In this document: positions 5,875 through 21,198 of the stretch, in pieces | Layout: the number at the start of each line of letters is the position of its first letter | How positions within the stretch are numbered: position 1 is the first letter of the stretch | Source of the DNA: Candidatus Stahliibacteriota bacterium | GTDB taxonomy: Bacteria; Hydrothermota; Tepidihabitantia; SM23-42 | DNA: 33,487 bases | Direction of reading: 5' to 3' | Assembly (NCBI GenBank): GCA_030613445.1 | Contig: JAUWLY010000002.1 | Span: 1-33,487, forward strand | Position numbers and translations under genes: made by a program | Notes under the pieces: generated by a model | Databases searched by the model: none | The model's input: the letters and a program-made list of their open reading frames with translations, nothing else | What the model was told of the DNA's origin: nothing

Positions 5875-5895
5875 AAAGGTGGCGAAATTAAAAAA

Positions 5896-5937
5896 GAAGG
5901 GGAGTGACAAATCAAAATCACTCCCCTTCTTTTTTTG
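5896..5937 (+). terminator. Rho-independent terminator (bidirectional shape)
   Basis: Perfect 12-bp stem GAAGGGGAGTGA (5896-5907) / TCACTCCCCTTC (5918-5929). An A-run precedes it and a T-run follows (5930-5936), 22 nt after the stop of the 2086-5874 gene. Confidence 0.8.
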
Positions 5938-6034
5938 TGCGGTATTTGTGCGGTCCATATATCAAATACCTGTGACTGTTTGTTGTCTATAATATCCTGG
6001 TATGTTAGCGGTAGAAACGGTTTATTAGAAAACA

Positions 6035-6165
6035 AAGGGGCGGCAGTTATTCACCACCGACCCCCCTATTTTTTATGCTGGCAACCTTGTGCCAAATCTG
6101 TGCCATTTTATCACCAAAACATATGGTAACAGACAGAATTCCCAGTAATAGGCAGAATTGCGCAA
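6035..6165. repeat. Dispersed repeat family A, copy 1 (~130 bp)
   Basis: Aligns with 15437-15568 in the same orientation, with about five substitutions and one small indel by my count. Contains the 19-nt core TTGTGCCAAATCTGTGCCA (6087-6105). Confidence 0.85.
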
Positions 6166-6253
6166 AATGTTATCTGGCTTGCATTTGTGCGATTTTGAAC
6201 GTGATCTCAAAGGTTATGAAAAAGGTTCAAAACGCTCTCACATGCCGAAGGTC

Positions 6254-6278
6254 ATGCGTTCAAGTCGCATACCGCCCA
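6254..6278 (+). other. tRNA 3'-end fragment (T-arm + acceptor strand), likely att-site relic
   Basis: ATGCG-TTCAAGT-CGCAT forms a perfect 5-bp T-stem with a TTCRANY-type loop, followed by the 7-nt ACCGCCC and a discriminator A. No matching 5' acceptor strand (GGGCGGT), D-arm or pairable anticodon stem occurs upstream. Confidence 0.45.
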
Positions 6279-6325
6279 TTGATTCTCAACGTTTTGCGGG
6301 CACCGCCTGTTTTTCGCAGAGGCTC

Positions 6326-6385
6326 TTGTGCCAAATCTGTGCCAACTTCCAACCTCTTCACTGCTTCCCTAAGATGAGCATCCAT
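6326..6385 (-). pseudogene. 3'-terminal remnant of a tyrosine recombinase gene
   Basis: The minus strand reads DAHLREAVKRLEVGTDLAQ..., matching the C-terminus ...SDAHLREAVKRLELGT of the 43-303 fragment. Nucleotide identity to 62-107 stops abruptly at 6380. The open frame continues to a stop at 6260 inside the tRNA fragment. Confidence 0.6.
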
Positions 6386-6394
6386 AACTAGAAA

Positions 6395-6668
6395 TTTGTC
6401 AAGGGTAAAGTGTAATGGCGAGGCGTAAACAATAAAAAAAACTACCTATTGAATGTTGATTTGCTAATGATAAACTTATTTACCACTGTGATGAAAATGG
6501 CAAGACGCGTCTGTAACGGAAAAGACAGTGGATTCGGTCCTGACCCCACCGCCATTTAAATGGGGAGAATGGAATAGGGTCATTGAAAAAAGGTTAACGC
6601 GCATCTTCGAGGGCCGAGATACGTATGGGTAAAATAAAGTCAGATGTACTGCTATCAAGGATGAAAAA
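6395..6668 (+). promoter_or_regulatory. Conserved promoter + ~190-nt 5' leader, copy 1 (paralogue at 17440-17718)
   Basis: An A8 tract is followed by TTGAAT (6449-6454), a 16-nt spacer and TAAACT (6471-6476). A leader follows containing the invariant 20-mer GTGGATTCGGTCCTGACCCC, and TGACCC...GGGTCA can pair. It aligns along most of its length with the region upstream of the second rSAM cassette. Confidence 0.6.
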
Positions 6669-6977
6669 ATGAAAAAGATGATAGGTGGATCAATCTTACT
6701 AATCCTATGTTTTGCAGTCAGTGGATGGGCTGAGGCACCAGCGCATTGGCATGGATATGTGAATTATGAAGGAGACCCAGTAGAGGGTGAATCTGTTTAT
6801 ACAGAACCAACAGATGGGCAAACATCCACGAACGCGGATAGCTTCTATGATTCATGCAACGCAAATGGAATGGGAAACAGGAAACACTATGACTATGTTC
6901 ACGCTAAAAAAACCATTGGTAATCGCTTGAAGGCAGAGGTCTATTACGCTAACGACTATTACTATGAAGTTTTTTAG
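6669..6977 (+). CDS. Small secreted protein (signal peptide, Tyr-rich C-terminus), translationally coupled to the radical-SAM gene
   Basis: N-terminus MKKMIGGSILLILCFAVSGWA-EAP looks like a Sec signal peptide. The mature part has a single Cys (FYDSCNANG) and ends YYANDYYYEVF. Its last 14 nt overlap the start of 6964-8328. No family recognised. Confidence 0.6.
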   Translation: MKKMIGGSILLILCFAVSGWAEAPAHWHGYVNYEGDPVEGESVYTEPTDGQTSTNADSFYDSCNANGMGNRKHYDYVHAKKTIGNRLKAEVYYANDYYYEVF

Positions 6978-8328
6978 GTCTGAGAATAATTACAAGCTCT
7001 CCTATTACAATTATTTGCACACAAAAGATAATATAACAATATTATACAACACCTATACAGGGGCTCAAGCAAATATCACAAAGTCAGATCGAGATTTCAT
7101 TTTGCATTTATTTGAAAACCTAAACAATTTTGAATTGCGTAATAAGAGGCCGGATATATTCGCAAAAATGATTCAATGTGGTTTTATAGTCAAAGAGGAT
7201 ATTCACGAGATTGACTTTATCCGATTTCGCTATTATAAAGGGGCATTTTCTGTAAAGAATTTGTCATTTACTCTGCTACCAACTCGAGCGTGTAATTTTC
7301 GATGTATATACTGTTTCGAAGATGAAATCAATGAATCAATGAATGCAGATGATTGCCATAATGTCCTAGCATTTGTGAAACGGCAGATAAAAGAACAAAT
7401 GCCACAAGCAGTTTCAATAAATTGGTATGGAGGAGAGCCTCTTCTTAAGTTTGAGATCATAAAAAATTTGAGTGAAGAATTCATAGAAATTTTTAAGACA
7501 GCTAAGATCGAATATCAAGGTGCCATCGTGACCAATGGTTATTTATTGGATGATAGTATTGCAAAACAACTATTGAAGTTGGGCATTAAGATAATCCAAA
7601 TTACGTTAGACGGACCAGAGGAAATTCATGATAAACGCAGGCCTTTAAGAAATGGTGGACCTACTTATGGTAAAGTGAAAGCTGGCATTATTTCTGCAAA
7701 AAAATATTTTGACAGTGTAGATATAAGAATCAATGTAGATCGTGACAATTTATGCTCAATTAGGGACTTCTTGGAAACAGAAGAATGGCTTTACGGTGAG
7801 AATACCACAGTAAGACCTGGAAGATTGAGAGACTATACTGATGTTTGTAGTGGGTTTTCGCCATGTGAAAAAGGATTTTCTGCTCCTGAATTCTACGACG
7901 TATACAAATTGATAAGAGGTCTTACTAAAACAAAAAGGTGTAAAGAGGATAGTGTATTTCCTGCTGTTGTTCCAGTCAGAAGTTTTTACTGTGGCGCCCA
8001 GGTTATAAATACCTATACAATAGGTCCGAGATGTTTTGTTTATAAATGCACTGCATCCCTTGATCATGGTGATGAAGTGGGCATTATAGAAAATGGAAAA
8101 TTCCAGCCGAATGAAAGATTTGTTGCGTGGTTTCTAAGAGAGCACCCGACTTATACAGAGCCGTGCAAATCATGTAAGATGTTGCCAATGTGCATGGGTG
8201 GATGTCGAGTAATTAGATTGAGAAGTTCAAATCATGAAGAATTAAAAAATGGTATTTGCCGTCATTTCTCTCTTCTGCTGAACACTTATTTAGAAAGCGA
8301 AGTAGAAAAATTAAAAAAAGCGATGTGA
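6964..8328 (+). CDS. Radical SAM / SPASM-domain enzyme (peptide-maturase-like, anSME/AslB superfamily)
   Basis: CxxxCxxC cluster motif RACNFRCIYC, GGEPLL motif, and C-terminal SPASM cysteines CGAQ...GPRCFVYKC and CKSCKMLPMCMGGC. Confidence 0.9.
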   Translation: MKFFRSENNYKLSYYNYLHTKDNITILYNTYTGAQANITKSDRDFILHLFENLNNFELRNKRPDIFAKMIQCGFIVKEDIHEIDFIRFRYYKGAFSVKNLSFTLLPTRACNFRCIYCFEDEINESMNADDCHNVLAFVKRQIKEQMPQAVSINWYGGEPLLKFEIIKNLSEEFIEIFKTAKIEYQGAIVTNGYLLDDSIAKQLLKLGIKIIQITLDGPEEIHDKRRPLRNGGPTYGKVKAGIISAKKYFDSVDIRINVDRDNLCSIRDFLETEEWLYGENTTVRPGRLRDYTDVCSGFSPCEKGFSAPEFYDVYKLIRGLTKTKRCKEDSVFPAVVPVRSFYCGAQVINTYTIGPRCFVYKCTASLDHGDEVGIIENGKFQPNERFVAWFLREHPTYTEPCKSCKMLPMCMGGCRVIRLRSSNHEELKNGICRHFSLLLNTYLESEVEKLKKAM

Positions 8329-8355
8329 AACTATTTACGAAAGGAGGTGATAATC

Positions 8356-8475
8356 ATGGATATTACAAAGCAACCACTAACCTGTTTAGAATGCAAAAAC
8401 CGGGAAACCGATGCTGAAATTGCTTTGGTTTGTCATTCTGGTTGTTGTGCCAGTAGTTGTTTTGCTATACTGTAA
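8356..8475 (+). CDS. 39-aa Cys-rich peptide, candidate RiPP precursor (not in ORF track)
   Basis: My translation is MDITKQPLTCLECKNRETDAEIALVCHSGCCASSCFAIL*. A near-perfect SD AAGGAGGTGA (8341-8350) lies 5 nt before the ATG, which is 27 nt after the rSAM stop. It has 7 Cys, five of them in the last 14 residues. Confidence 0.6.
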   Translation: MDITKQPLTCLECKNRETDAEIALVCHSGCCASSCFAIL

Positions 8476-8526
8476 ATCACATGGTTTAAGAAGCAGGTAC
8501 AAAGCTCGGATGGTGATAATTAATTG

Positions 8527-9109
8527 TCGTCATCCGAGCTGGTATTAGCGATTGCGCGCAATAATCCGGAGTTTAGTTGTCGGGTGTTGGCCGTGAAGAT
8601 CATCGATGAGGAAGCGTTCAGCGTATCGGCATTGACCGTGGCTCGGTTGTAAAGGAAAGAAGGCTTAGTTGAGCCGCGCCCGATTACTGACGTGCCAGTC
8701 GCCAAATCCTGACATCACAAGACCAAAGGATGTGAGAAGATATGGCAGTGTGACGCGATGTACTATTTTGTGGTGGGCTGGGGTTATTGCAGGCAGATTA
8801 CAGTGCAGGATGACTATTCCCGGTATCCTTTGACTTGGGGGTGAAGCCGGATGAGACTGCATTCAGCATCAGCGAGGTGGTGGAGAAAACCATTGAGAAT
8901 GCAGAGCAGCAAGGTCACTTACAGAATGGCAACAGGCCAAAGTTTGTATCGGACAATGAACCGGGTTATACTTCAAAGATTCTTGCTGGGTATCTACTGG
9001 GTATCTAAATGTGAGTCCTCGGGATATATTTGCAGGCAGAAAGGAGGAAATATTACAGAAACGAGCAAAAAAAGTGCTTGATTCTAGCACGAAGGAGATT
9101 ATAATATAG
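8527..9109 (+). pseudogene. Degenerate DDE transposase (rve integrase-core type, IS481/IS3-like)
   Basis: Pieces sit in three frames: ...LAVKIIDEEAFSVSALTVARL* (HTH region), KIWQCDAMYYFVVGWGYCRQITVQDDYSRYPLTWG* (first catalytic D), GVKPDETAFS...RPKFVSDNEPGYTSKILAGYLLGI* (SDN second D) and SPRDIFAGRKEEILQKRAKK. The segment that should hold the catalytic E is missing. Confidence 0.7.
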
Positions 9110-9333
9110 TGGGTAAACATAATGATATACAGTTCTCTGAAGTGTAAGTTAAAAAATGAGCGATTTGTCCAAAATCGGCTGAAGCATAGTAATTATAGTA
9201 TTGCTATACAAAAAAAGGGAGGAATCCCAGACCTACGCCATTTCTCACAGAAATTTCACAGTTTTTATGTATGTTGACATAATGGTACCTTGACTGTAAT
9301 AGCGCAGGGCATATAATAATTTAGGGAGGACTT

Positions 9334-9498
9334 ATGCATAGGAATATCTTTGTATTATCATTGATTATGGGCATATATTTTTCATTTGCCACATCAACCT
9401 ACACGATACGCAAATTTGATAAACCTGAAGTTGATGAAGTCTCTGATAGTGAAAAGATTCCACACCGAATCCTGTTCCGTCAAATAATAGTTGATTAA
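9334..9498 (+). CDS. Hypothetical 54-aa protein with hydrophobic N-terminus
   Basis: MHRNIFVLSLIMGIYFSFATSTYTIRKFDKPEVDEVSDSEKIPHRILFRQIIVD*. SD AGGGAGGA lies just upstream. Preceded by TTGACT (9290-9295), a 16-nt spacer and TATAAT (9312-9317). No family recognised. Confidence 0.35.
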   Translation: MHRNIFVLSLIMGIYFSFATSTYTIRKFDKPEVDEVSDSEKIPHRILFRQIIVD

Positions 9499-9594
9499 GC
9501 GCAGAATGTCCAATGTTCAGACCTGACCCCTCTTTTTCCCTTTTCAAACACTGCACCTATACTATGTTTCAAGGACTGAAAATATCGTATCAGC

Positions 9595-9622
9595 TTGACA
9601 ACTGTATGTGCGTTAGTATAAT
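9595..9622 (+). promoter_or_regulatory. Consensus sigma70-type promoter of the GWxTD operon
   Basis: TTGACA (9595-9600), a 16-nt spacer and TATAAT (9617-9622). AGGAGGTGG SD and the GTG start at 9655 lie downstream. Confidence 0.55.
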
Positions 9623-9654
9623 GTAAGGAGGAAGATTATTATAGGAGGTGGAAT

Positions 9655-10890
9655 GTGACCGTAGTGGCATATTTCATATTTATTGCGGCAATTGACATTA
9701 ATGTTTACCGTTTTGCTGAGAATTATGTAGAGTTTTGGTATCAAATTCCTGTAAATCAAGTTTTTGCGCTGGATGAACTGAATGCTGCAAAAGAAGATAC
9801 AATCTTCAAAGAGTACTCCTACCGCCTTGATATCTACAATATAGCAGATGACGATTCTGGCTATTTTGAAGGTACGAAGGGGGCTTTAGTAATTCCCGAG
9901 CAACGGCATGACTATTTCATTGACTATATACCAGCCTATTTGTATCCTGGTGAATTTCTTTATACCTTGGCAATAGAAACTGGTGATTATGCTGTGTCGT
10001 ATGATGGTGCAATTCAACTATCTGCAGATACAAGTGGTCTTTTTTGCAGTGACTTGATCTTAGGTAAGAAAAACCATGATGAAAACCTGGTTTGCCATGG
10101 CTATACGTTCAGACCGAAAATCCCGGCGCATTTCACCGAATATGATAATCTATTTACATATATGGAAATTTATGGATTAATCCCTGATAGTCTCCTTTAT
10201 AGTATTCAATACAGGATTGTTGATAGCTTAGAGAATATTGTGTTTGAACACGCTGAGAGACGAATTAAATATGACTTTGTGCAGATAGATACTTGTTATA
10301 CGAGCTTACATAATTATATAGATGGATCGTATAAATTGACTGTGTGTGTTTACGACCCCTCGCAATGCGATACACTTATTTGCGAAGCAGAGTTTAGGGT
10401 TGTTACATCGTTGGACATGGTGGCCAACGCGGTATTCTACAGTGATATTCAACACCTTCTAAGTCCTGAAGAATATAAGGATTTTCTAAAACTCGACGTT
10501 CATGAAAAAAAAGTATATCTGAAGAAATTCTGGTCAACAAGGAACTATTGGGAATTTGAGAAGCGAATTATAGAAGTAGATGCGCAGCTTGGAACACCGT
10601 TTGCTCTAGGACGCGACACTGATCGTGGCAGGATATACATACAACTTGGTCCTCCTGAATGGATCGATTCCCGATCCATGGAAAAAACTTGGCTCTATGA
10701 AGATTTAAAGGCCGGAGCAAGAGTCGGAAGCCCCTGTCAAATCTGGCATTACGATGGCAGAGGCATTCGTTTACTATTTTGTGACACTAACAAAGACGGT
10801 GATTTTGAACTTCTTGGCTACTTTGGCGCTCACGAAGAGTATGAGGAATTTTTAAAGGACCACCAAGAGTTAATGGGATATTTTGATTAA
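9655..10890 (+). CDS. GWxTD domain-containing protein
   Basis: C-terminal region ...KKFWSTRNYWEFEKRIIEVDAQLGTPFALGRDTDRGRIYIQLGPPEWID...IWHYDGRGIRLLFCDTNKDGDFELL matches the GWxTD signature (G-x-x-TDRG..Y...G.P ... W.Y). GTG start follows a strong SD. Confidence 0.8.
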   Translation: MTVVAYFIFIAAIDINVYRFAENYVEFWYQIPVNQVFALDELNAAKEDTIFKEYSYRLDIYNIADDDSGYFEGTKGALVIPEQRHDYFIDYIPAYLYPGEFLYTLAIETGDYAVSYDGAIQLSADTSGLFCSDLILGKKNHDENLVCHGYTFRPKIPAHFTEYDNLFTYMEIYGLIPDSLLYSIQYRIVDSLENIVFEHAERRIKYDFVQIDTCYTSLHNYIDGSYKLTVCVYDPSQCDTLICEAEFRVVTSLDMVANAVFYSDIQHLLSPEEYKDFLKLDVHEKKVYLKKFWSTRNYWEFEKRIIEVDAQLGTPFALGRDTDRGRIYIQLGPPEWIDSRSMEKTWLYEDLKAGARVGSPCQIWHYDGRGIRLLFCDTNKDGDFELLGYFGAHEEYEEFLKDHQELMGYFD

Positions 10891-17718: not shown

Positions 17719-17916
17719 ATGATTAATGCTAAAAACTGGGGTGGTGCCAGTGGCATTAATGAGACATGGAAATGTGGTTGTGCCTGCGTATGTAACTGTA
17801 TTTGCGGTTGTGGCATTGGGGATGATCTTGATGACTGCATCGCTGAGGCCTACCAGAATGACATTAATTCTGTAGCCAATGGTACGGCGTACGACGTAAG
17901 AATATCAATTCCATAA
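17719..17916 (+). CDS. 65-aa alternating-cysteine peptide, candidate RiPP precursor
   Basis: MINAKNWGGASGINETWKCGCACVCNCICGCGIGDDLDDCIAEAYQNDINSVANGTAYDVRISIP. AAGGAGG SD lies 6 nt upstream. Seven Cys occupy every second position (residues 19-31), with an eighth at residue 40. It lies directly upstream of a SPASM rSAM gene. Confidence 0.75.
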   Translation: MINAKNWGGASGINETWKCGCACVCNCICGCGIGDDLDDCIAEAYQNDINSVANGTAYDVRISIP

Positions 17917-17925
17917 TAGTATAAC

Positions 17926-17957
17926 GTGAGCTTGGAGGCTGCGGCTTCCAAGCTCAC
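17926..17957 (+). promoter_or_regulatory. Intercistronic stem-loop between peptide gene and radical-SAM gene
   Basis: GTGAGCTTGGA (17926-17936) pairs perfectly with TCCAAGCTCAC (17947-17957). The stem extends through further pairs to a TGCG tetraloop. No T-run follows; the SD for the next gene starts at 17972. Confidence 0.55.
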
Positions 17958-18111
17958 TAGCTCACTAAATTAAGGAGGTTTAATAAACGATTCTCCATTT
18001 ATACATAGATTTAAGAGTCTTTCTGGCAAATATTACATCTATGATGTTGGTACAAGCCGCGTTGTCTGTGTATCGAAAATCATTTATGATATCATAGATG
18101 ATTTTGGGCTA

Positions 18112-19461
18112 TTGTCACAATTTGATATAATATCAAAGTACATTAGTAAATATAATAGACAGCATATTATTAAGGCATTTGAAGAGATTAAACTACATAA
18201 ATCCAAAAGATTATTTTCCCCACCAAGACTTAGAAAAATGCATCGTCCATCATTGGATGAAGAAACTAAATTAAAATTATCCTCGCAGATAGGCCATTTG
18301 TGCCTGAATATCACAGACTCATGTAATTTACGATGTAAATATTGTGCGTTCAGTGGTACATACTATTTCGAAAGATTACACTCAAGCAAGTCGATGAGTA
18401 ACAAATTGATAAAAAAGACAGTAAATTATTATCTACGCCACGCTAGGGAGGCAGAAAATAAAGTAATTTCCATATACGGTGGCGAACCATTGACAGTATT
18501 CCAAAAAATTGTGTATTTAAGTGATGTTCTTTCGAACTCCAATCCAAATAGTGACTGCACAATCAGAATTGATACCAATGGTGTATTGCTCAGTGATCCA
18601 CATATCACCAACTATGTAATCAAAAATAATATCGATTTACAAATCAGTCTTGATGGTCCTAAAAGCACACAAGACAGATATCGTGTTGACAAAAATAACA
18701 AACCAACTTATGATAAGATAATATCGAACCTGTCCAATATCAAAAAAATAAACAGGCAATATTATGATGAACATGTTTCATTTTCTATTACACTTGCTCC
18801 GGATTATAATTTGTATGAAATCAACAATTTTTTTGAAACAAATAAACTCGTTAAAGGACATCATATGCTGTGCTCCAGTGTTAGAAGACACGATACTAAT
18901 TTCTTTGACAGATATACGCCAGATATTTATGAAAAAAAGCAAAAACAAATGCAAACATTGAAAGGAAACTACATTAATGCGCGAATAGCAGGAAAGGAGC
19001 CAACTGCATTTGAGAAAGCACTATTCGAAAAAAGTATAGTTTTACTACATGCAAGAAAACTAGACGAACCGTATGATAGTATTTCAATGAATGGATGCTG
19101 TTTTCCAGGACTGAGAAAAATTTACGTTAATACAAATGGCAATATTCATCCATGTGAAAAAGTTGGTAATGCATACAATATCGGAAGTCTTGACAAGGGA
19201 TTAGAGCTGAATAAAATAGCAGATATGCTAAAACAATACGTGAGTGCATCTGAAACTCACTGTATAAAATGCTGGGGTGCAAAGATATGCGGAATATGTT
19301 TTTCCCATGCTGTCAAAAATCATAAATTTGACTTTGAACGAAAAAAAGAGAATTGTCATATGATACTTTCCGCATCGCACAACGAGTTGGTAACTTATGC
19401 AACAATATTAGAAAGTAATCCCCAAGCTTTTGATTTTGTTAAAAACATGACTTTCAAATAA
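18112..19461 (+). CDS. Radical SAM / SPASM-domain peptide-maturase-like enzyme (true N-terminus probably ~43 codons upstream)
   Basis: DSCNLRCKYC (CxxxCxxC), YGGEPL, and SPASM cysteines NGCCFPG...IHPCEK...CIKCWGAKICGIC. The track start is TTG at 18112, but the frame is open back to 17974, just after the SD AAGGAGG (17972-17978). That extension encodes a typical maturase N-terminus, ...GKYYIYDVGTSRVVCVSKIIYDII. Confidence 0.9.
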   Translation: MSQFDIISKYISKYNRQHIIKAFEEIKLHKSKRLFSPPRLRKMHRPSLDEETKLKLSSQIGHLCLNITDSCNLRCKYCAFSGTYYFERLHSSKSMSNKLIKKTVNYYLRHAREAENKVISIYGGEPLTVFQKIVYLSDVLSNSNPNSDCTIRIDTNGVLLSDPHITNYVIKNNIDLQISLDGPKSTQDRYRVDKNNKPTYDKIISNLSNIKKINRQYYDEHVSFSITLAPDYNLYEINNFFETNKLVKGHHMLCSSVRRHDTNFFDRYTPDIYEKKQKQMQTLKGNYINARIAGKEPTAFEKALFEKSIVLLHARKLDEPYDSISMNGCCFPGLRKIYVNTNGNIHPCEKVGNAYNIGSLDKGLELNKIADMLKQYVSASETHCIKCWGAKICGICFSHAVKNHKFDFERKKENCHMILSASHNELVTYATILESNPQAFDFVKNMTFK

Positions 19462-21198
19462 ATGAAAGAATATATTAAATTGTATCTTCGGTTTATAGCA
19501 ATGAGTAGACCATGGTGGAAAAATGGCATTGGTGCAATTATTATTAGCCTTTCCGTTGTTATTTTTCAACTGCCGCTGCCATTGATCAGCAGATATGCAA
19601 TTGACAATATTTTTCCCCAAAAAGACATCTCAGCATTAAACTTAATTGCCTTAGGATTCTTATTCCTCACACTATCTAGTGCCGTAGGCAACTATCTAAG
19701 TAGTATGCTGCTTTTCTTGGTCAGGTCTAAGCTAACAATTTTTATTCAACATGAATTATTTCAACATATAGAACACCTAAGCATGACTTTTCATGAAAAT
19801 ACAAAGGTTGGATATTTAGCAGCCAGATTAAGTAGTGATGTTAGTCGTTTGCGGGGCTTGATGACTGATACATTACTTGGTTTTGTACGCAATTTATTGA
19901 TTTTCATTGGCGGAGTCACAGCATTGTTCTTTTTAAATTGGAAATTAGCCTTTTTAGCAATGATTATACTACCTTTTTTTGGGTATTCAATATATTTTTT
20001 TTCAAGCAAAATTCGATGGCTGGCAACTGATCTACAGGAAAAGACAGCTCAAGTTTTCAGTATCTTCAACGAAACTCTATATTCCATCACCACAGTAAAA
20101 ACATTTTGCATTGAAGATATACAAGCAAATAAAGCACTTGATAGGCTAAATTCTGCATTTAATGCTAACCTTAATCTTACAAAAACTTCCCGGCTTTCTG
20201 GTATGACGACATCTATATTGGGTTCCTTGGGTCCATTACTTATCCTTTGGTTTGGTGGAAGAGAAATAATGGCGGGTCATTTGACTCTTGGTGGTTTTGT
20301 TGCTTTTACTGGTTATCTGGGATACCTATATAGTCCAGTTCAATCACTGGTCAATTTAAATATGTCTTTACAAACTTCGCTTGCATCGCTGAAAAGAGTG
20401 TTTAATATATTCGATACTCCCAAAGAATCTAATAAGATAGTGAACAGCGAAGATAGCTATAATATAAGAGGGAAAATCGAATTTTCAGATGTCACGTTTT
20501 CATATAATGAAAATGAACCTGTATTGAAACATATATCATTTCTCATTAATCCAGGCGAAAGAATCGCTATTGTTGGTAGATCAGGTGCGGGGAAAAGTAC
20601 AATAGCAAGGTTGCTGATCAATTTTTACAAACCACAATCAGGAAATATTTTTATCGATAGCATAAACCTGAACGCAATCTCAACGGATTTCTTAAGAAAA
20701 AATATAGGAATTGTGTTACAAAACGCAACCATTTTATCGGGAACCATTTATGATAATGTAAAGGTTGGAAACATCGATGCAACCCATGATGAAGTAATTA
20801 ATGCATTAAAGATTGCAAATCTTTATGACTTTGTACTTTCTTTACCTAATGGACTTAAGACGGAAGTTAGCGAAAGAGGTACGCGGTTGTCTGGCGGTGA
20901 AAGACAGAGACTGGCAATTGCCAGAGTTATTTTAAAAAATCCTAAAATACTAATCTTTGACGAAGCAACTTCAGAGGTAGATTCTGAATCTGAGATACTC
21001 ATTCATGAAGCAATGGTGCATTTCTTAAAGAATAAAACATCTATTTTCATTGCTCATAGATTATTCAGTTTAATGCATGCTGATCGCATAATTTTTATTG
21101 AAAATGGTATTATCAAAGGATTTGGCGATCATAATAAATTGTATAATAGTGTAATGTCATATAAAAAACTCTATGATGAGCAATTTAGGGTTGCATAG
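19462..21198 (+). CDS. ABC transporter, fused permease/ATP-binding half-transporter (MsbA/exporter type, no peptidase domain)
   Basis: N-terminal 6-TM region, Walker A GRSGAGKST, signature LSGGERQR, Walker B ILIFDEATS and H-loop IAHR. The ATG starts the nucleotide after the rSAM stop codon. The N-terminus goes straight into TM1, so there is no C39 domain. Confidence 0.9.
   Translation: MKEYIKLYLRFIAMSRPWWKNGIGAIIISLSVVIFQLPLPLISRYAIDNIFPQKDISALNLIALGFLFLTLSSAVGNYLSSMLLFLVRSKLTIFIQHELFQHIEHLSMTFHENTKVGYLAARLSSDVSRLRGLMTDTLLGFVRNLLIFIGGVTALFFLNWKLAFLAMIILPFFGYSIYFFSSKIRWLATDLQEKTAQVFSIFNETLYSITTVKTFCIEDIQANKALDRLNSAFNANLNLTKTSRLSGMTTSILGSLGPLLILWFGGREIMAGHLTLGGFVAFTGYLGYLYSPVQSLVNLNMSLQTSLASLKRVFNIFDTPKESNKIVNSEDSYNIRGKIEFSDVTFSYNENEPVLKHISFLINPGERIAIVGRSGAGKSTIARLLINFYKPQSGNIFIDSINLNAISTDFLRKNIGIVLQNATILSGTIYDNVKVGNIDATHDEVINALKIANLYDFVLSLPNGLKTEVSERGTRLSGGERQRLAIARVILKNPKILIFDEATSEVDSESEILIHEAMVHFLKNKTSIFIAHRLFSLMHADRIIFIENGIIKGFGDHNKLYNSVMSYKKLYDEQFRVA

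What the first reader, a model, noticed from the sequence alone, without database searches (positions are those of the whole stretch)
8356..8475. Unlisted 39-aa Cys-rich ORF immediately downstream of the first radical-SAM/SPASM gene
Seen: ATG at 8356 lies 5 nt after a near-perfect SD (AAGGAGGTGA) and 27 nt after the rSAM stop. It encodes MDITKQPLTCLECKNRETDAEIALVCHSGCCASSCFAIL*, with 7 Cys and a C-terminal CHSGCCASSC cluster. It falls below the 60-aa cutoff of the supplied ORF track. Established: rSAM/SPASM maturases commonly sit beside leader-plus-Cys-rich-core precursors of this size. Inference: this is a second candidate precursor, unrelated in sequence to the 65-aa peptide of the other cassette. 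That would imply cassette-style diversification of substrates.
Basis: partly seen in the sequence, partly recalled or inferred. Interest (0 to 1): 0.7.

Follow-up and report, generated by a model that had tools for sequence, protein, structure and literature searches.

The report
Conserved Cys-rich radical-SAM precursor peptide gene
The 39-codon open reading frame is a real, selected but mostly unannotated gene that travels with a radical-SAM peptide-modifying enzyme in uncultured WOR-3-type bacteria, and it is most likely that enzyme's substrate: a new family within a well-known kind of system.

Summary
The ORF at 8356-8475 (+) is exactly as described, except that it has 6 Cys, not 7. It follows a strong Shine-Dalgarno site and lies 27 nt after the radical-SAM (rSAM) stop.

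It is a real gene. One homologous 37-44-aa ORF lies beside every rSAM orthologue I could fetch (57% down to 36% identity), in about 13 distinct metagenomic loci. There are no stops or frameshifts. Synonymous sites are saturated (pS 0.71-0.96) while pN is 0.12-0.27.

The N-terminal 12 residues (M-[DEKQ]-[IV]-x-x-x-x-[ILV]-T-C-[LM]-E) persist across the family. The Cys-rich C-terminal half diverges, which is the leader/core pattern of a RiPP (ribosomally made, enzyme-modified peptide) precursor.

The enzyme has CxxxCxxC, all seven SPASM Cys and an N-terminal RRE-like (leader-binding) domain. Its best structural match is CteB, a thioether-forming maturase.

No Pfam or NCBIfam model matches the peptide. 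The enzyme scores below the cut-off of every named maturase family. Profile searches of 5.8 and 1.84 billion proteins found only this handful of peptides.

Best reading: a new precursor/maturase family of the sacti-/ranthipeptide kind, with untested chemistry.

Caveat: in one sub-lineage the rSAM is broken or deleted while the peptide ORF stays intact.

The parts
6964..8328 (+). Radical SAM/SPASM peptide maturase, 454 aa, intact
   Evidence: Pfam Radical_SAM 1.4e-18. The best NCBIfam hits are Clo7bot maturase (244 bits), CefB (223) and TIGR04463 (187), all far below their cut-offs. The AF2 model has pLDDT 92.1. The top Foldseek match is CteB 5why/5wgg, aligned over the full length.
6991..7248 (+). 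N-terminal RRE-like (leader-binding) domain of the maturase, about aa 10-95
   Evidence: The AF2 model shows four beta strands (aa 10-38) followed by helices (aa 40-95) ahead of the rSAM barrel. The Foldseek alignment to the RRE-containing CteB and TigE covers the whole length. No Pfam PqqD hit was found, so the assignment rests on structure only.
7291..7314 (+). CxxxCxxC radical-SAM cluster motif (C110, C114, C117)
   Evidence: Invariant in a 30-sequence alignment of homologues.
7990..8259 (+). SPASM region with seven invariant Cys (C343, C362, C401, C404, C410, C414, C432), implying two auxiliary Fe-S clusters
   Evidence: Invariant columns in alignment A6. The CKSCKMLPMCMGGC motif is read directly from the sequence.
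8341..8350 (+). Shine-Dalgarno site AAGGAGGTGA, 5 nt before the ATG
   Evidence: GAAAGGAGGTGAT is conserved in 7 of 8 relatives. In L008, L009 and L014 it lies inside the last codons of the rSAM gene, which suggests translational coupling.
8356..8475 (+). 39-aa Cys-rich precursor-like peptide gene (coordinates include the stop)
   Evidence: Homologues lie beside rSAM orthologues in about 13 distinct loci. Codon analysis shows purifying selection. The ORF was called as a gene in the Logan assembly copy L003.
8356..8391 (+). Putative leader / recognition motif, aa 1-12 (MDITKQPLTCLE)
   Evidence: This is the part of the peptide that persists down to 36-44% rSAM identity: MEILRNPITALE (L012), MQIIKSPLTCLE (L011), MEVLRKAVETLE (L019). 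That it functions as a leader is inferred.
8431..8472 (+). Putative core, aa 26-39 (CHSGCCASSCFAIL), with conserved Cys 26, 30/31 and 35
   Evidence: C26 and C35 are nearly invariant across the 14 family members. C30, C31 and S33 are invariant among the five closer relatives aligned in A5. The region is replaced by other Cys-rich sequences in distant members.

Best explanation
The 39-aa ORF is a translated, selected gene. It most likely encodes the substrate (RiPP precursor) of the rSAM/SPASM enzyme immediately upstream, and the two genes form a minimal, co-inherited cassette.

Proposed mechanism:
1. The enzyme's N-terminal RRE-like domain binds the conserved N-terminal segment of the peptide (M-x-I-x-x-x-x-[IL]-T-C-[LM]-E).
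2. The rSAM cluster generates a 5'-deoxyadenosyl radical that abstracts a hydrogen atom from an acceptor residue.
3. A Cys thiol of the C-terminal cluster (C26, C30/31, C35), probably held on a SPASM auxiliary cluster, closes an intramolecular thioether ring, as in sacti- and ranthipeptides.
4. The conserved Glu residues (E12, E17, E21) are either leader contacts or the acceptor residues.

Shown here: the gene is real, it is conserved as protein, it is linked to the rSAM, it has the leader/core conservation pattern, and the enzyme has the RRE-rSAM-SPASM architecture.

Inferred: that the peptide is the substrate, the leader/core boundary, the thioether chemistry, and the fate and function of the product. 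No protease or exporter gene is conserved next to the pair.
For: - Linkage: one family member per locus, on the rSAM strand. It lies 0-160 nt downstream of rSAM orthologues of 38-57% identity, and just upstream of the rSAM at 36% identity (L019).
- The genes flanking the pair differ between loci, so the pair is the conserved unit.
- Peptide and enzyme divergence run in parallel. Peptide identity is 56-59% where rSAM identity is 54-57%, and 17-19% where it is 36-38%.
- Purifying selection: pS 0.71-0.96 against pN 0.12-0.27.
- The SD site is conserved.
- The N-terminus is conserved and the Cys-rich C-terminus is variable.
- The enzyme has an invariant CxxxCxxC and seven SPASM Cys, and a confident model with an RRE-like N-terminal domain. 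Its best structural match is the thioether-forming SCIFF maturase CteB, followed by TigE, anSME, SuiB, ChlB and SkfB.
- The best sequence-family hits are all maturases paired with Cys-rich peptides.
- The peptide alone has no confident fold (pLDDT 52), as expected for a precursor rather than a folded mini-protein.
- No Rfam family matches the region.
Against: - No direct evidence of expression or modification exists.
- In one sub-lineage the rSAM is damaged while the peptide ORF stays intact: a TAA nonsense codon in L006/L007/L018, an N-terminal deletion that removes CxxxCxxC in L016, and only fragments left in L015/L017. The peptide may therefore have a role that does not need this enzyme. 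Alternatively, a 117-nt ORF may simply outlive a decaying cassette.
- No leader-peptidase or exporter is conserved nearby, and there is no recognisable cleavage motif.
- The chemistry of an uncharacterised rSAM cannot be predicted reliably from this level of similarity (PMC10288494). The closest named families (Clo7bot, CefB, TIGR04463, FlmE/OhkG) have, to my knowledge, no established chemistry. For FlmE/OhkG, PMC12703449 says the natural products are still uncharacterised.
Confidence: 0.7

Rival explanations
1. The peptide is a real small protein but not a substrate. It could be an independent Cys-rich metal-binding or redox mini-protein, or a regulatory or partner peptide of the enzyme, that happens to be co-transcribed with it.
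For: The peptide ORF stays intact next to a nonsense-mutated, truncated or largely deleted rSAM in L006, L016 and L015. L006 and L015 differ at nearly all synonymous sites yet keep the protein (pS 0.93, pN 0.16). Four Cys are conserved in the closer relatives. No protease or exporter is conserved nearby.
Against: The Cys pattern is not a known metal-binding knuckle. The Cys-rich half is replaced wholesale in distant members while the N-terminal 12 residues persist, which is the opposite of what a metal-site protein would show. AF2 gives no fold. The enzyme carries a leader-binding-type domain. A 117-nt ORF is a small target for mutation, so its survival beside a recently broken enzyme is weak evidence.
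Confidence: 0.13
2. The peptide is the substrate, but the modification is not a Cys thioether. It could be a C-C or C-O cross-link, epimerisation, Cys oxidation or another rSAM reaction, with the Cys forming disulfides or binding metal afterwards.
For: SPASM enzymes with the same architecture carry out many other reactions: TigE makes cyclopropylglycine, SuiB a Lys-Trp link, anSME formylglycine. All are among the top structural matches. PMC10288494 states that the chemistry of an uncharacterised rSAM is virtually impossible to predict unless sequence identity to a known example is exceptionally high. Aromatic residues (F/W36) and Ser/Thr are also conserved in the core.
Against: Cys is the dominant conserved feature of the variable core in every family member. 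The best structural match (CteB) forms thioethers. The best HMM matches are maturases named for their association with Cys-rich peptides.
Confidence: 0.25
3. The ORF is a chance reading frame in the 3' untranslated region or terminator region of the rSAM gene. The true substrate lies elsewhere, for example the 102-aa secreted ORF at 6669-6977 that overlaps the rSAM start.
For: The ORF is very short. A weak terminator-like hairpin lies inside it at 8438-8453. Gene calls for the NCBI MAG records behind L005 and L013 did not include it.
Against: The ORF is conserved as protein with saturated synonymous sites and a conserved SD and start. It is present once in every related locus. The 102-aa ORF has no counterpart upstream of any orthologue.
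Confidence: 0.02

Closest known systems
SCIFF peptide / CteB-ScfB ranthipeptide system (thermocellin; TIGR03974 maturase)
   Same: Both have a 40-45-aa precursor with a C-terminal Cys cluster and a two-gene core with an RRE-rSAM-SPASM maturase. CteB is the best structural match of the window enzyme. From my own knowledge, SCIFF loci also have no obligatory transporter in the core pair.
   Different: The window enzyme scores 59 bits against a 425-bit cut-off for TIGR03974. The peptide matches no NCBIfam precursor model. The Cys spacing and leader differ. Here the peptide gene is usually downstream of the enzyme. The host lineage is WOR-3/TA06-type, not Clostridia.
Clo7bot (TIGR04334), CefA/CefB 'Cys-every-fifth' (NF038107) and TIGR04463 rSAM/SPASM maturases
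   Same: These are the best sequence-family matches, aligned nearly end to end at 244, 223 and 187 bits. All are bioinformatically defined maturases paired with small Cys-rich peptides.
   Different: All scores are far below the family cut-offs of 600, 600 and 525 bits. The 39-aa peptide and all its relatives match none of the NCBIfam peptide models. No Cys-every-fifth periodicity is present. To my knowledge the chemistry of these families is not established.
Hairpin sactipeptides (thurincin H/ThnB, subtilosin A/AlbA) and Cys-Asp/Glu thioether systems (PapA/PapB freyrasin; QhpC/QhpD)
   Same: In both cases an rSAM/SPASM enzyme joins Cys sulfur to carbons of other residues. In the closer relatives the invariant E12, E17 and E21 mirror C35, C30 and C26 (each pair of positions sums to 47). 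This resembles the nested donor/acceptor symmetry of thurincin H, which I recall from memory. PapB links Cys to Asp or Glu (PMC9413430).
   Different: No sequence membership: PapB family 98.7 against 340 bits, QhpD 60 against 453, RumMC 66 against 720. The symmetry is a pattern in the sequence, not a tested linkage.
FlmE/OhkG rSAM/SPASM maturases of the orphan 'DD(I/V)LF' RiPP clusters (NF052473)
   Same: The HMM match is distant but full-length, at 151.6 bits. This is also an orphan RiPP family from FCB-group bacteria whose product is uncharacterised (PMC12703449).
   Different: The score is below the 500-bit cut-off. The peptide has no DD(I/V)LF C-terminus, and no peptide arginase gene lies in the locus.

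Membership tests
Radical SAM / SPASM RiPP maturase (general class; the enzyme at 6964-8328) | CxxxCxxC motif for the SAM-binding [4Fe-4S] cluster | tested here: met
   C110, C114 and C117 are invariant in 30 homologues. Pfam Radical_SAM 1.4e-18.
Radical SAM / SPASM RiPP maturase (general class; the enzyme at 6964-8328) | C-terminal SPASM domain with seven Cys for two auxiliary clusters | tested here: met
   C343, C362, C401, C404, C410, C414 and C432 are invariant. End-to-end alignment to rSAM/SPASM NCBIfam models. Pfam SPASM itself did not reach E<=0.001.
Radical SAM / SPASM RiPP maturase (general class; the enzyme at 6964-8328) | RiPP recognition element (RRE) for leader binding | tested here: met
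   The AF2 model (pLDDT 92) has strands at aa 10-38 and helices at aa 40-95 before the barrel. Full-length Foldseek alignment to the RRE-bearing CteB and TigE. Structural evidence only; there is no PqqD Pfam hit.
RiPP precursor peptide (generic) | Small gene adjacent to, and co-inherited with, its maturase | tested here: met
   One copy per locus beside the rSAM in about 13 distinct loci, while the flanking genes differ.
RiPP precursor peptide (generic) | Conserved leader and variable core | tested here: met
   In the 14-sequence alignment, residues 1-12 persist (I3 and E12 nearly invariant) while the Cys-rich C-terminal half diverges.
RiPP precursor peptide (generic) | The peptide is post-translationally modified by the enzyme | not testable with these tools
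   Needs co-expression and mass spectrometry.
Ranthipeptide | Thioether from Cys sulfur to a non-alpha carbon of the acceptor residue (definition in PMC10288494) | not testable with these tools
   This is a chemical feature. Only the Cys-rich core and the CteB-like fold are shown.
Ranthipeptide | [quoted passage not shown] | tested here: not met
   59 bits against a 425 cut-off, and 98.7 against 340.
Sactipeptide | Thioether from Cys sulfur to an alpha carbon (definition in PMC10288494) | not testable with these tools
   This is a chemical feature. Sactisynthases are sequence-diverse, so the low scores to RumMC (66 against 720) and others do not exclude it.
Clo7bot / CefAB / TIGR04463 systems | Maturase reaches the NCBIfam equivalog cut-off | tested here: not met
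   244 against 600, 223 against 600 and 187 against 525 bits.
Clo7bot / CefAB / TIGR04463 / SCIFF systems | Peptide matches the family's precursor model | tested here: not met
   No NCBIfam hit at E<=10 for the 9 family peptides scanned, apart from a 7-bit chance match to methanobactin. No NCBIfam hit at E<=0.1 and no Pfam hit at E<=1 for the window peptide.

The most novel reading that the evidence does not exclude
The peptide family may define a new RiPP scaffold or a new reaction.

In the closer relatives three invariant Glu (E12, E17, E21) mirror three invariant Cys (C35, C30, C26) around the centre of the peptide. E17 and C30 are both absent from the L004/P0128 peptides and from L012. This is compatible with a hairpin stapled by three nested Cys-Glu thioethers. 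Such a product would combine the sactipeptide hairpin topology with ranthipeptide/QhpC-type chemistry. Only about 10 N-terminal residues would then serve as leader, and no cleavage would be needed.

Alternatively, the peptide may keep a function without the enzyme, since it outlives the enzyme in three loci.
Probability: 0.15. Interest if true: 0.65.

Novelty: new member of a known kind. Interest (0 to 1): 0.45.

Why it matters
The result shows that a 39-codon ORF, below usual annotation cut-offs, is a genuine selected gene. It was missed in the gene calls for at least two NCBI MAG records.

It defines a previously unnamed precursor/maturase pair in uncultured WOR-3/TA06-type bacteria. These are phyla from which I know of no characterised RiPP, and one literature search found none.

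The peptide is short enough to synthesise or clone, so the chemistry can be tested directly. The family offers a compact 12-residue recognition motif with naturally diversified Cys-rich cores, which could be useful for peptide-cyclisation engineering.

This does not change any concept. Cys-rich peptides beside rSAM/SPASM enzymes are a well-known theme.

Tried and rejected
- The genome-contig scan with the rSAM found only a 27%-identical Segatella copri gene. That locus has no family peptide.
- A single-sequence search with the peptide found only a 95%-identical strain variant, which says nothing about selection: 2 non-synonymous and 0 synonymous changes.
- The 10-sequence peptide alignment was too diverse for the metagenome scan. 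A 5-sequence alignment gave 3 loci, only one of them new.
- The full-library profile search returned long proteins with strong summed E-values. Local re-scoring showed about 20 repeats of 1-3 bits each (TEGTTNLYFTDARADARI), so these are spurious.
- Pfam and NCBIfam have no model for the peptide. Rfam finds nothing in 6000-10000.
- Literature searches for the FlmE/OhkG, Clo7bot and CefB names mostly returned noise. FlmE/OhkG were traced to an orphan RiPP cluster with unknown rSAM chemistry. A search for WOR-3 plus ranthipeptide found no paper.
The peptide alone folds with low confidence.
- I considered the upstream 102-aa secreted ORF as the substrate and rejected it, because it is not conserved upstream of any orthologue.
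- I considered the GTG start at 8347 and rejected it, because it lies inside the SD and is not conserved.
- I considered the overlapping +2-frame ORF at 8411-8548 and rejected it, because the ORF lists of the loci I read showed no similar ORF.

Full report
**Observation**

Window 8356-8475 (+) reads ATG...TAA and translates to MDITKQPLTCLECKNRETDAEIALVCHSGCCASSCFAIL. The rSAM ORF 6964-8328 stops 27 nt upstream. AAGGAGGTGA sits at 8341-8350, 5 nt before the ATG.

The SD 10-mer occurs twice in the window against 0.03 expected. The other copy, at 1913, lies within a gene and has no ATG after it. A GTG at 8347 extends the mechanical ORF to 42 aa, but it lies inside the SD.

**The neighbourhood**

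- ORF 6964-8328 is a 454-aa radical SAM protein.
- Its best NCBIfam matches are nearly end-to-end alignments to rSAM/SPASM maturases of Cys-rich peptides: Clo7bot 244 bits, CefB 223, TIGR04463 187, FlmE/OhkG 152. All are far below the curated cut-offs of 500-600 bits.
- Upstream lies a 102-aa signal-peptide-like ORF (6669-6977) that overlaps the rSAM start.
- Downstream (about 8520-9100) are frameshifted fragments that look like a transposase/integrase remnant. The Pfam hits are weak (HTH_32, HTH_Tnp_Tc3_2), DDYSR and SDNEPGYTS motifs can be read directly in the ORF translations, and GC is 0.48 against 0.385 for the window.
- A second, distantly related rSAM (18112-19461, CcpM-like; 32% identity over the core) lies 10 kb away. 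It has its own upstream 65-aa CxC-rich peptide and an ABC exporter.

**Is the small ORF a gene?**

A direct search with the peptide found only a 95%-identical strain variant from another sample, in the same context. I therefore went through the enzyme.

The rSAM has 2,841 homologues at E<=1e-20. The closest (36-57% identity) come from candidate division WOR-3, TA06 and unnamed metagenomic contigs. I fetched the contigs of ten of them. Every one carries a homologous small ORF on the same strand, next to the rSAM.

| Locus | rSAM identity | Peptide |
|---|---|---|
| L009/L010 | 54% | MDIVREAITCLEDRNMESDAEISLLCYPPCCGSTCWAIL |
| L008 | 56% | MEILIQSITCMEDKNRETEVEISMICYPGCCGSACFPIL |
| L006/L007 | 57% | MDIIIQPITCMEDKNRECETEISLICYPRCCGSACFPVL |
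| L004/L005 | 54% | MKIIETGLTCLEFDNSGNDIEIKKTCSGFPCGNTCWAIWIKDKN |
| L014 | 48% | MKILREAITCLESNNSENDSEISLLCSPPCSTTCWGLF |
| L011 | 44% | MQIIKSPLTCLESSDASINSTEISSACSTCEPARPPAALK |
| L012 | 44% | MEILRNPITALEIKVARPGGEVVEGCCPTLFIPVCTGEYEVAIT |
| L013 (TA06) | 38% | MEILRTGKHNIYTTEAESENAAPISCCADNLCIPTKVCY |
| L019/L020 | 36% | MEVLRKAVETLETKAAEQAPCVICPEYYSGCPPACSC (upstream of the rSAM here) |

A profile of the family scored against six-frame translations of all fetched loci finds exactly one member per related locus. It finds none in the 27%-identical Segatella locus.

The genes flanking the pair are unrelated from locus to locus: a kinase/sigma-54 activator, Fe-ADH, T9SS-tailed proteins, peptidases. 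The conserved unit is therefore the two-gene pair.

**Selection**

Among the six 39-codon members:
- proportional synonymous differences are 0.71-0.96, which is saturated;
- non-synonymous differences are 0.12-0.27;
- where dS can be estimated, dN/dS is 0.05-0.13.

The SD and ATG are kept.

**Leader/core pattern**

In the 14-sequence alignment the N-terminal 12 residues persist throughout: M, I/V3, [ILV]8, T9, C10 (Ala in L012, Thr in L019), [LM]11, E12. L013 keeps only the first five of these. C26 and C35 are nearly invariant.

The rest of the C-terminal half is conserved only among close relatives. In distant ones it is replaced by other Cys-rich sequences. That is the usual signature of a RiPP precursor.

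C13 of the window peptide is not conserved.

The peptide alone gives no confident fold (pLDDT 52).

**The enzyme**

A 30-sequence alignment shows invariant C110/C114/C117 and seven invariant C-terminal Cys, including CxxCx5Cx3C. This corresponds to one SAM cluster plus two SPASM auxiliary clusters.

The AF2 model is confident (pLDDT 92.1, pTM 0.89). It has an N-terminal strand-plus-helix domain (aa 10-95) ahead of the barrel.

Foldseek against the PDB ranks the matches in this order:
1. CteB, the thioether-forming SCIFF maturase (5why/5wgg, full-length alignment, E 2e-17);
2. TigE;
3. anSME;
4. SuiB;
5. ChlB;
6. SkfB.

Sequence search of the PDB gives anSME and CteB. The architecture is thus RRE-rSAM-SPASM, the architecture of enzymes that bind a leader peptide and cross-link a core.

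**How it most likely works**

The pair is co-transcribed. In close relatives the SD lies within or just after the last rSAM codons, so the two genes are probably translationally coupled.

The RRE-like domain binds the N-terminal motif. The enzyme then installs intramolecular cross-links that involve the C-terminal Cys cluster. Thioethers are the most likely product, given the Cys-dominated core and the CteB-like enzyme.

This last step is inference. PMC10288494 stresses that the chemistry of uncharacterised rSAMs is virtually impossible to predict without exceptionally high identity to a known example. The closest named families have no established chemistry to my knowledge (PMC12703449 for FlmE/OhkG).

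One pattern is worth testing. In the closer relatives the invariant E12, E17 and E21 mirror the invariant C35, C30 and C26, and each pair of positions sums to 47. E17 and C30 are both missing from L004/P0128 and from L012. This would fit nested Cys-Glu staples. PapB is known to link Cys to Asp or Glu (PMC9413430). The Glu residues could equally be leader contacts.

**Caveat**

In one sub-lineage the enzyme is decaying while the peptide ORF stays intact:
- L006/L007/L018 carry an in-frame TAA in the RRE region, seen on six contigs.
- L016 lacks the N-terminus including CxxxCxxC, and has a transposase gene nearby.
- L015/L017 retain only fragments of the rSAM.

Either the cassette is dispensable and the small ORF simply survives longer, or the peptide has a role independent of this enzyme.

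No protease or exporter is conserved beside the pair. L011 and L012 do have peptidases and/or an ABC transporter, plus further rSAM-peptide pairs, close by.

**How common, how new**

Profile searches of 5.8 billion clustered proteins found 8 hits, all family members. A search of 1.84 billion representatives with full HMMER found five family peptides plus spurious repeat proteins. A metagenome DNA scan added one further locus.

The family is therefore rare, or rarely called. The gene calls listed for the NCBI MAG records behind L005 and L013 omit it.

No Pfam or NCBIfam model matches any member. One literature search found nothing linking WOR-3 to ranthipeptides.

**Verdict**

It is a new precursor/maturase family within the familiar class of rSAM/SPASM-modified Cys-rich RiPPs. 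It is of moderate interest, mainly as a small, testable system from uncultured phyla.

Noticed in passing
window 8520-9100: Frameshifted fragments of a transposase/integrase lie just downstream of the peptide gene. Pfam hits to HTH_32 and HTH_Tnp_Tc3_2 are weak, and DDYSR and SDNEPGYTS motifs appear in different frames. GC is 0.48 against 0.385 for the window. The strain variant L002 has the same remnant, but its peptide-to-next-gene spacing is about 430 nt shorter.
   Followed up: partly
window 6669-6977: A 102-aa ORF with a signal-peptide-like N-terminus overlaps the rSAM start by 14 nt. It has no Pfam hit and no counterpart upstream of any rSAM orthologue. Its function is unknown.
   Followed up: partly
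window 17719-21198: A second, unrelated cassette. It has a 65-aa peptide with a CGCACVCNCICGCG run (17719-17916), a CcpM/RumMC-like rSAM (18112-19461; 252 bits, below cut-off) and an ABC exporter (19462-21198).
   Followed up: partly
L006 4974-4976 (also L007, L018); L016 2966-3994; L015 5588-5984 (also L017): The rSAM next to the peptide is inactivated in three different ways within one sub-lineage: a TAA nonsense codon, an N-terminal deletion that removes CxxxCxxC, and near-complete deletion. The 39-aa ORF stays intact in all three.
   Followed up: yes
L006 4216-4563 and L016 2410-2757: A 115-aa ORF upstream of the rSAM resembles the N-terminal part of the T9SS-tailed protein encoded just downstream of the peptide (L006 6645-8039; L016 4184-5857). 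It looks as if the rSAM-peptide pair sits between a gene fragment and its paralogue. This is a possible trace of insertion.
   Followed up: no
L016 950-2254 (-): A 434-aa integrase/transposase-like ORF lies about 700 nt upstream of the truncated rSAM.
   Followed up: no
L012 1-11935: One contig carries three rSAM paralogues, two Peptidase_C25 (gingipain-like) genes, a sigma-54 activator and four different small Cys- or Pro-rich ORFs. It looks like a multi-cassette RiPP island.
   Followed up: partly
L011 1-4834: Directly upstream of the family rSAM lies another RiPP-like set: a PqqD-rSAM-SPASM enzyme, a 41-aa ORF, an ABC transporter and an S9 peptidase.
   Followed up: no
L019 4560-6281: An AIPR (abortive-infection-type) gene lies directly downstream of the rSAM in the locus where the peptide is upstream.
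   Followed up: no
window 6964-8475 against its flanks: The rSAM gene has lower GC (0.352) than the flanking T9SS genes (0.42) and the downstream genes (0.40), and the peptide gene is at 0.383. Cassette 2 is also low, at 0.342. Together with the variable genomic contexts, this hints at horizontal mobility of these pairs.
   Followed up: no
protein P0011: A 42%-identical rSAM homologue is labelled Candidatus Bathyarchaeota archaeon. This is either a cross-domain occurrence or a mis-binned contig.
   Followed up: no
window 5880-6660: About 800 nt between the 1262-aa T9SS-tailed gene and the 102-aa ORF have no convincing gene. The ORFs there have no Pfam hit.
   Followed up: no
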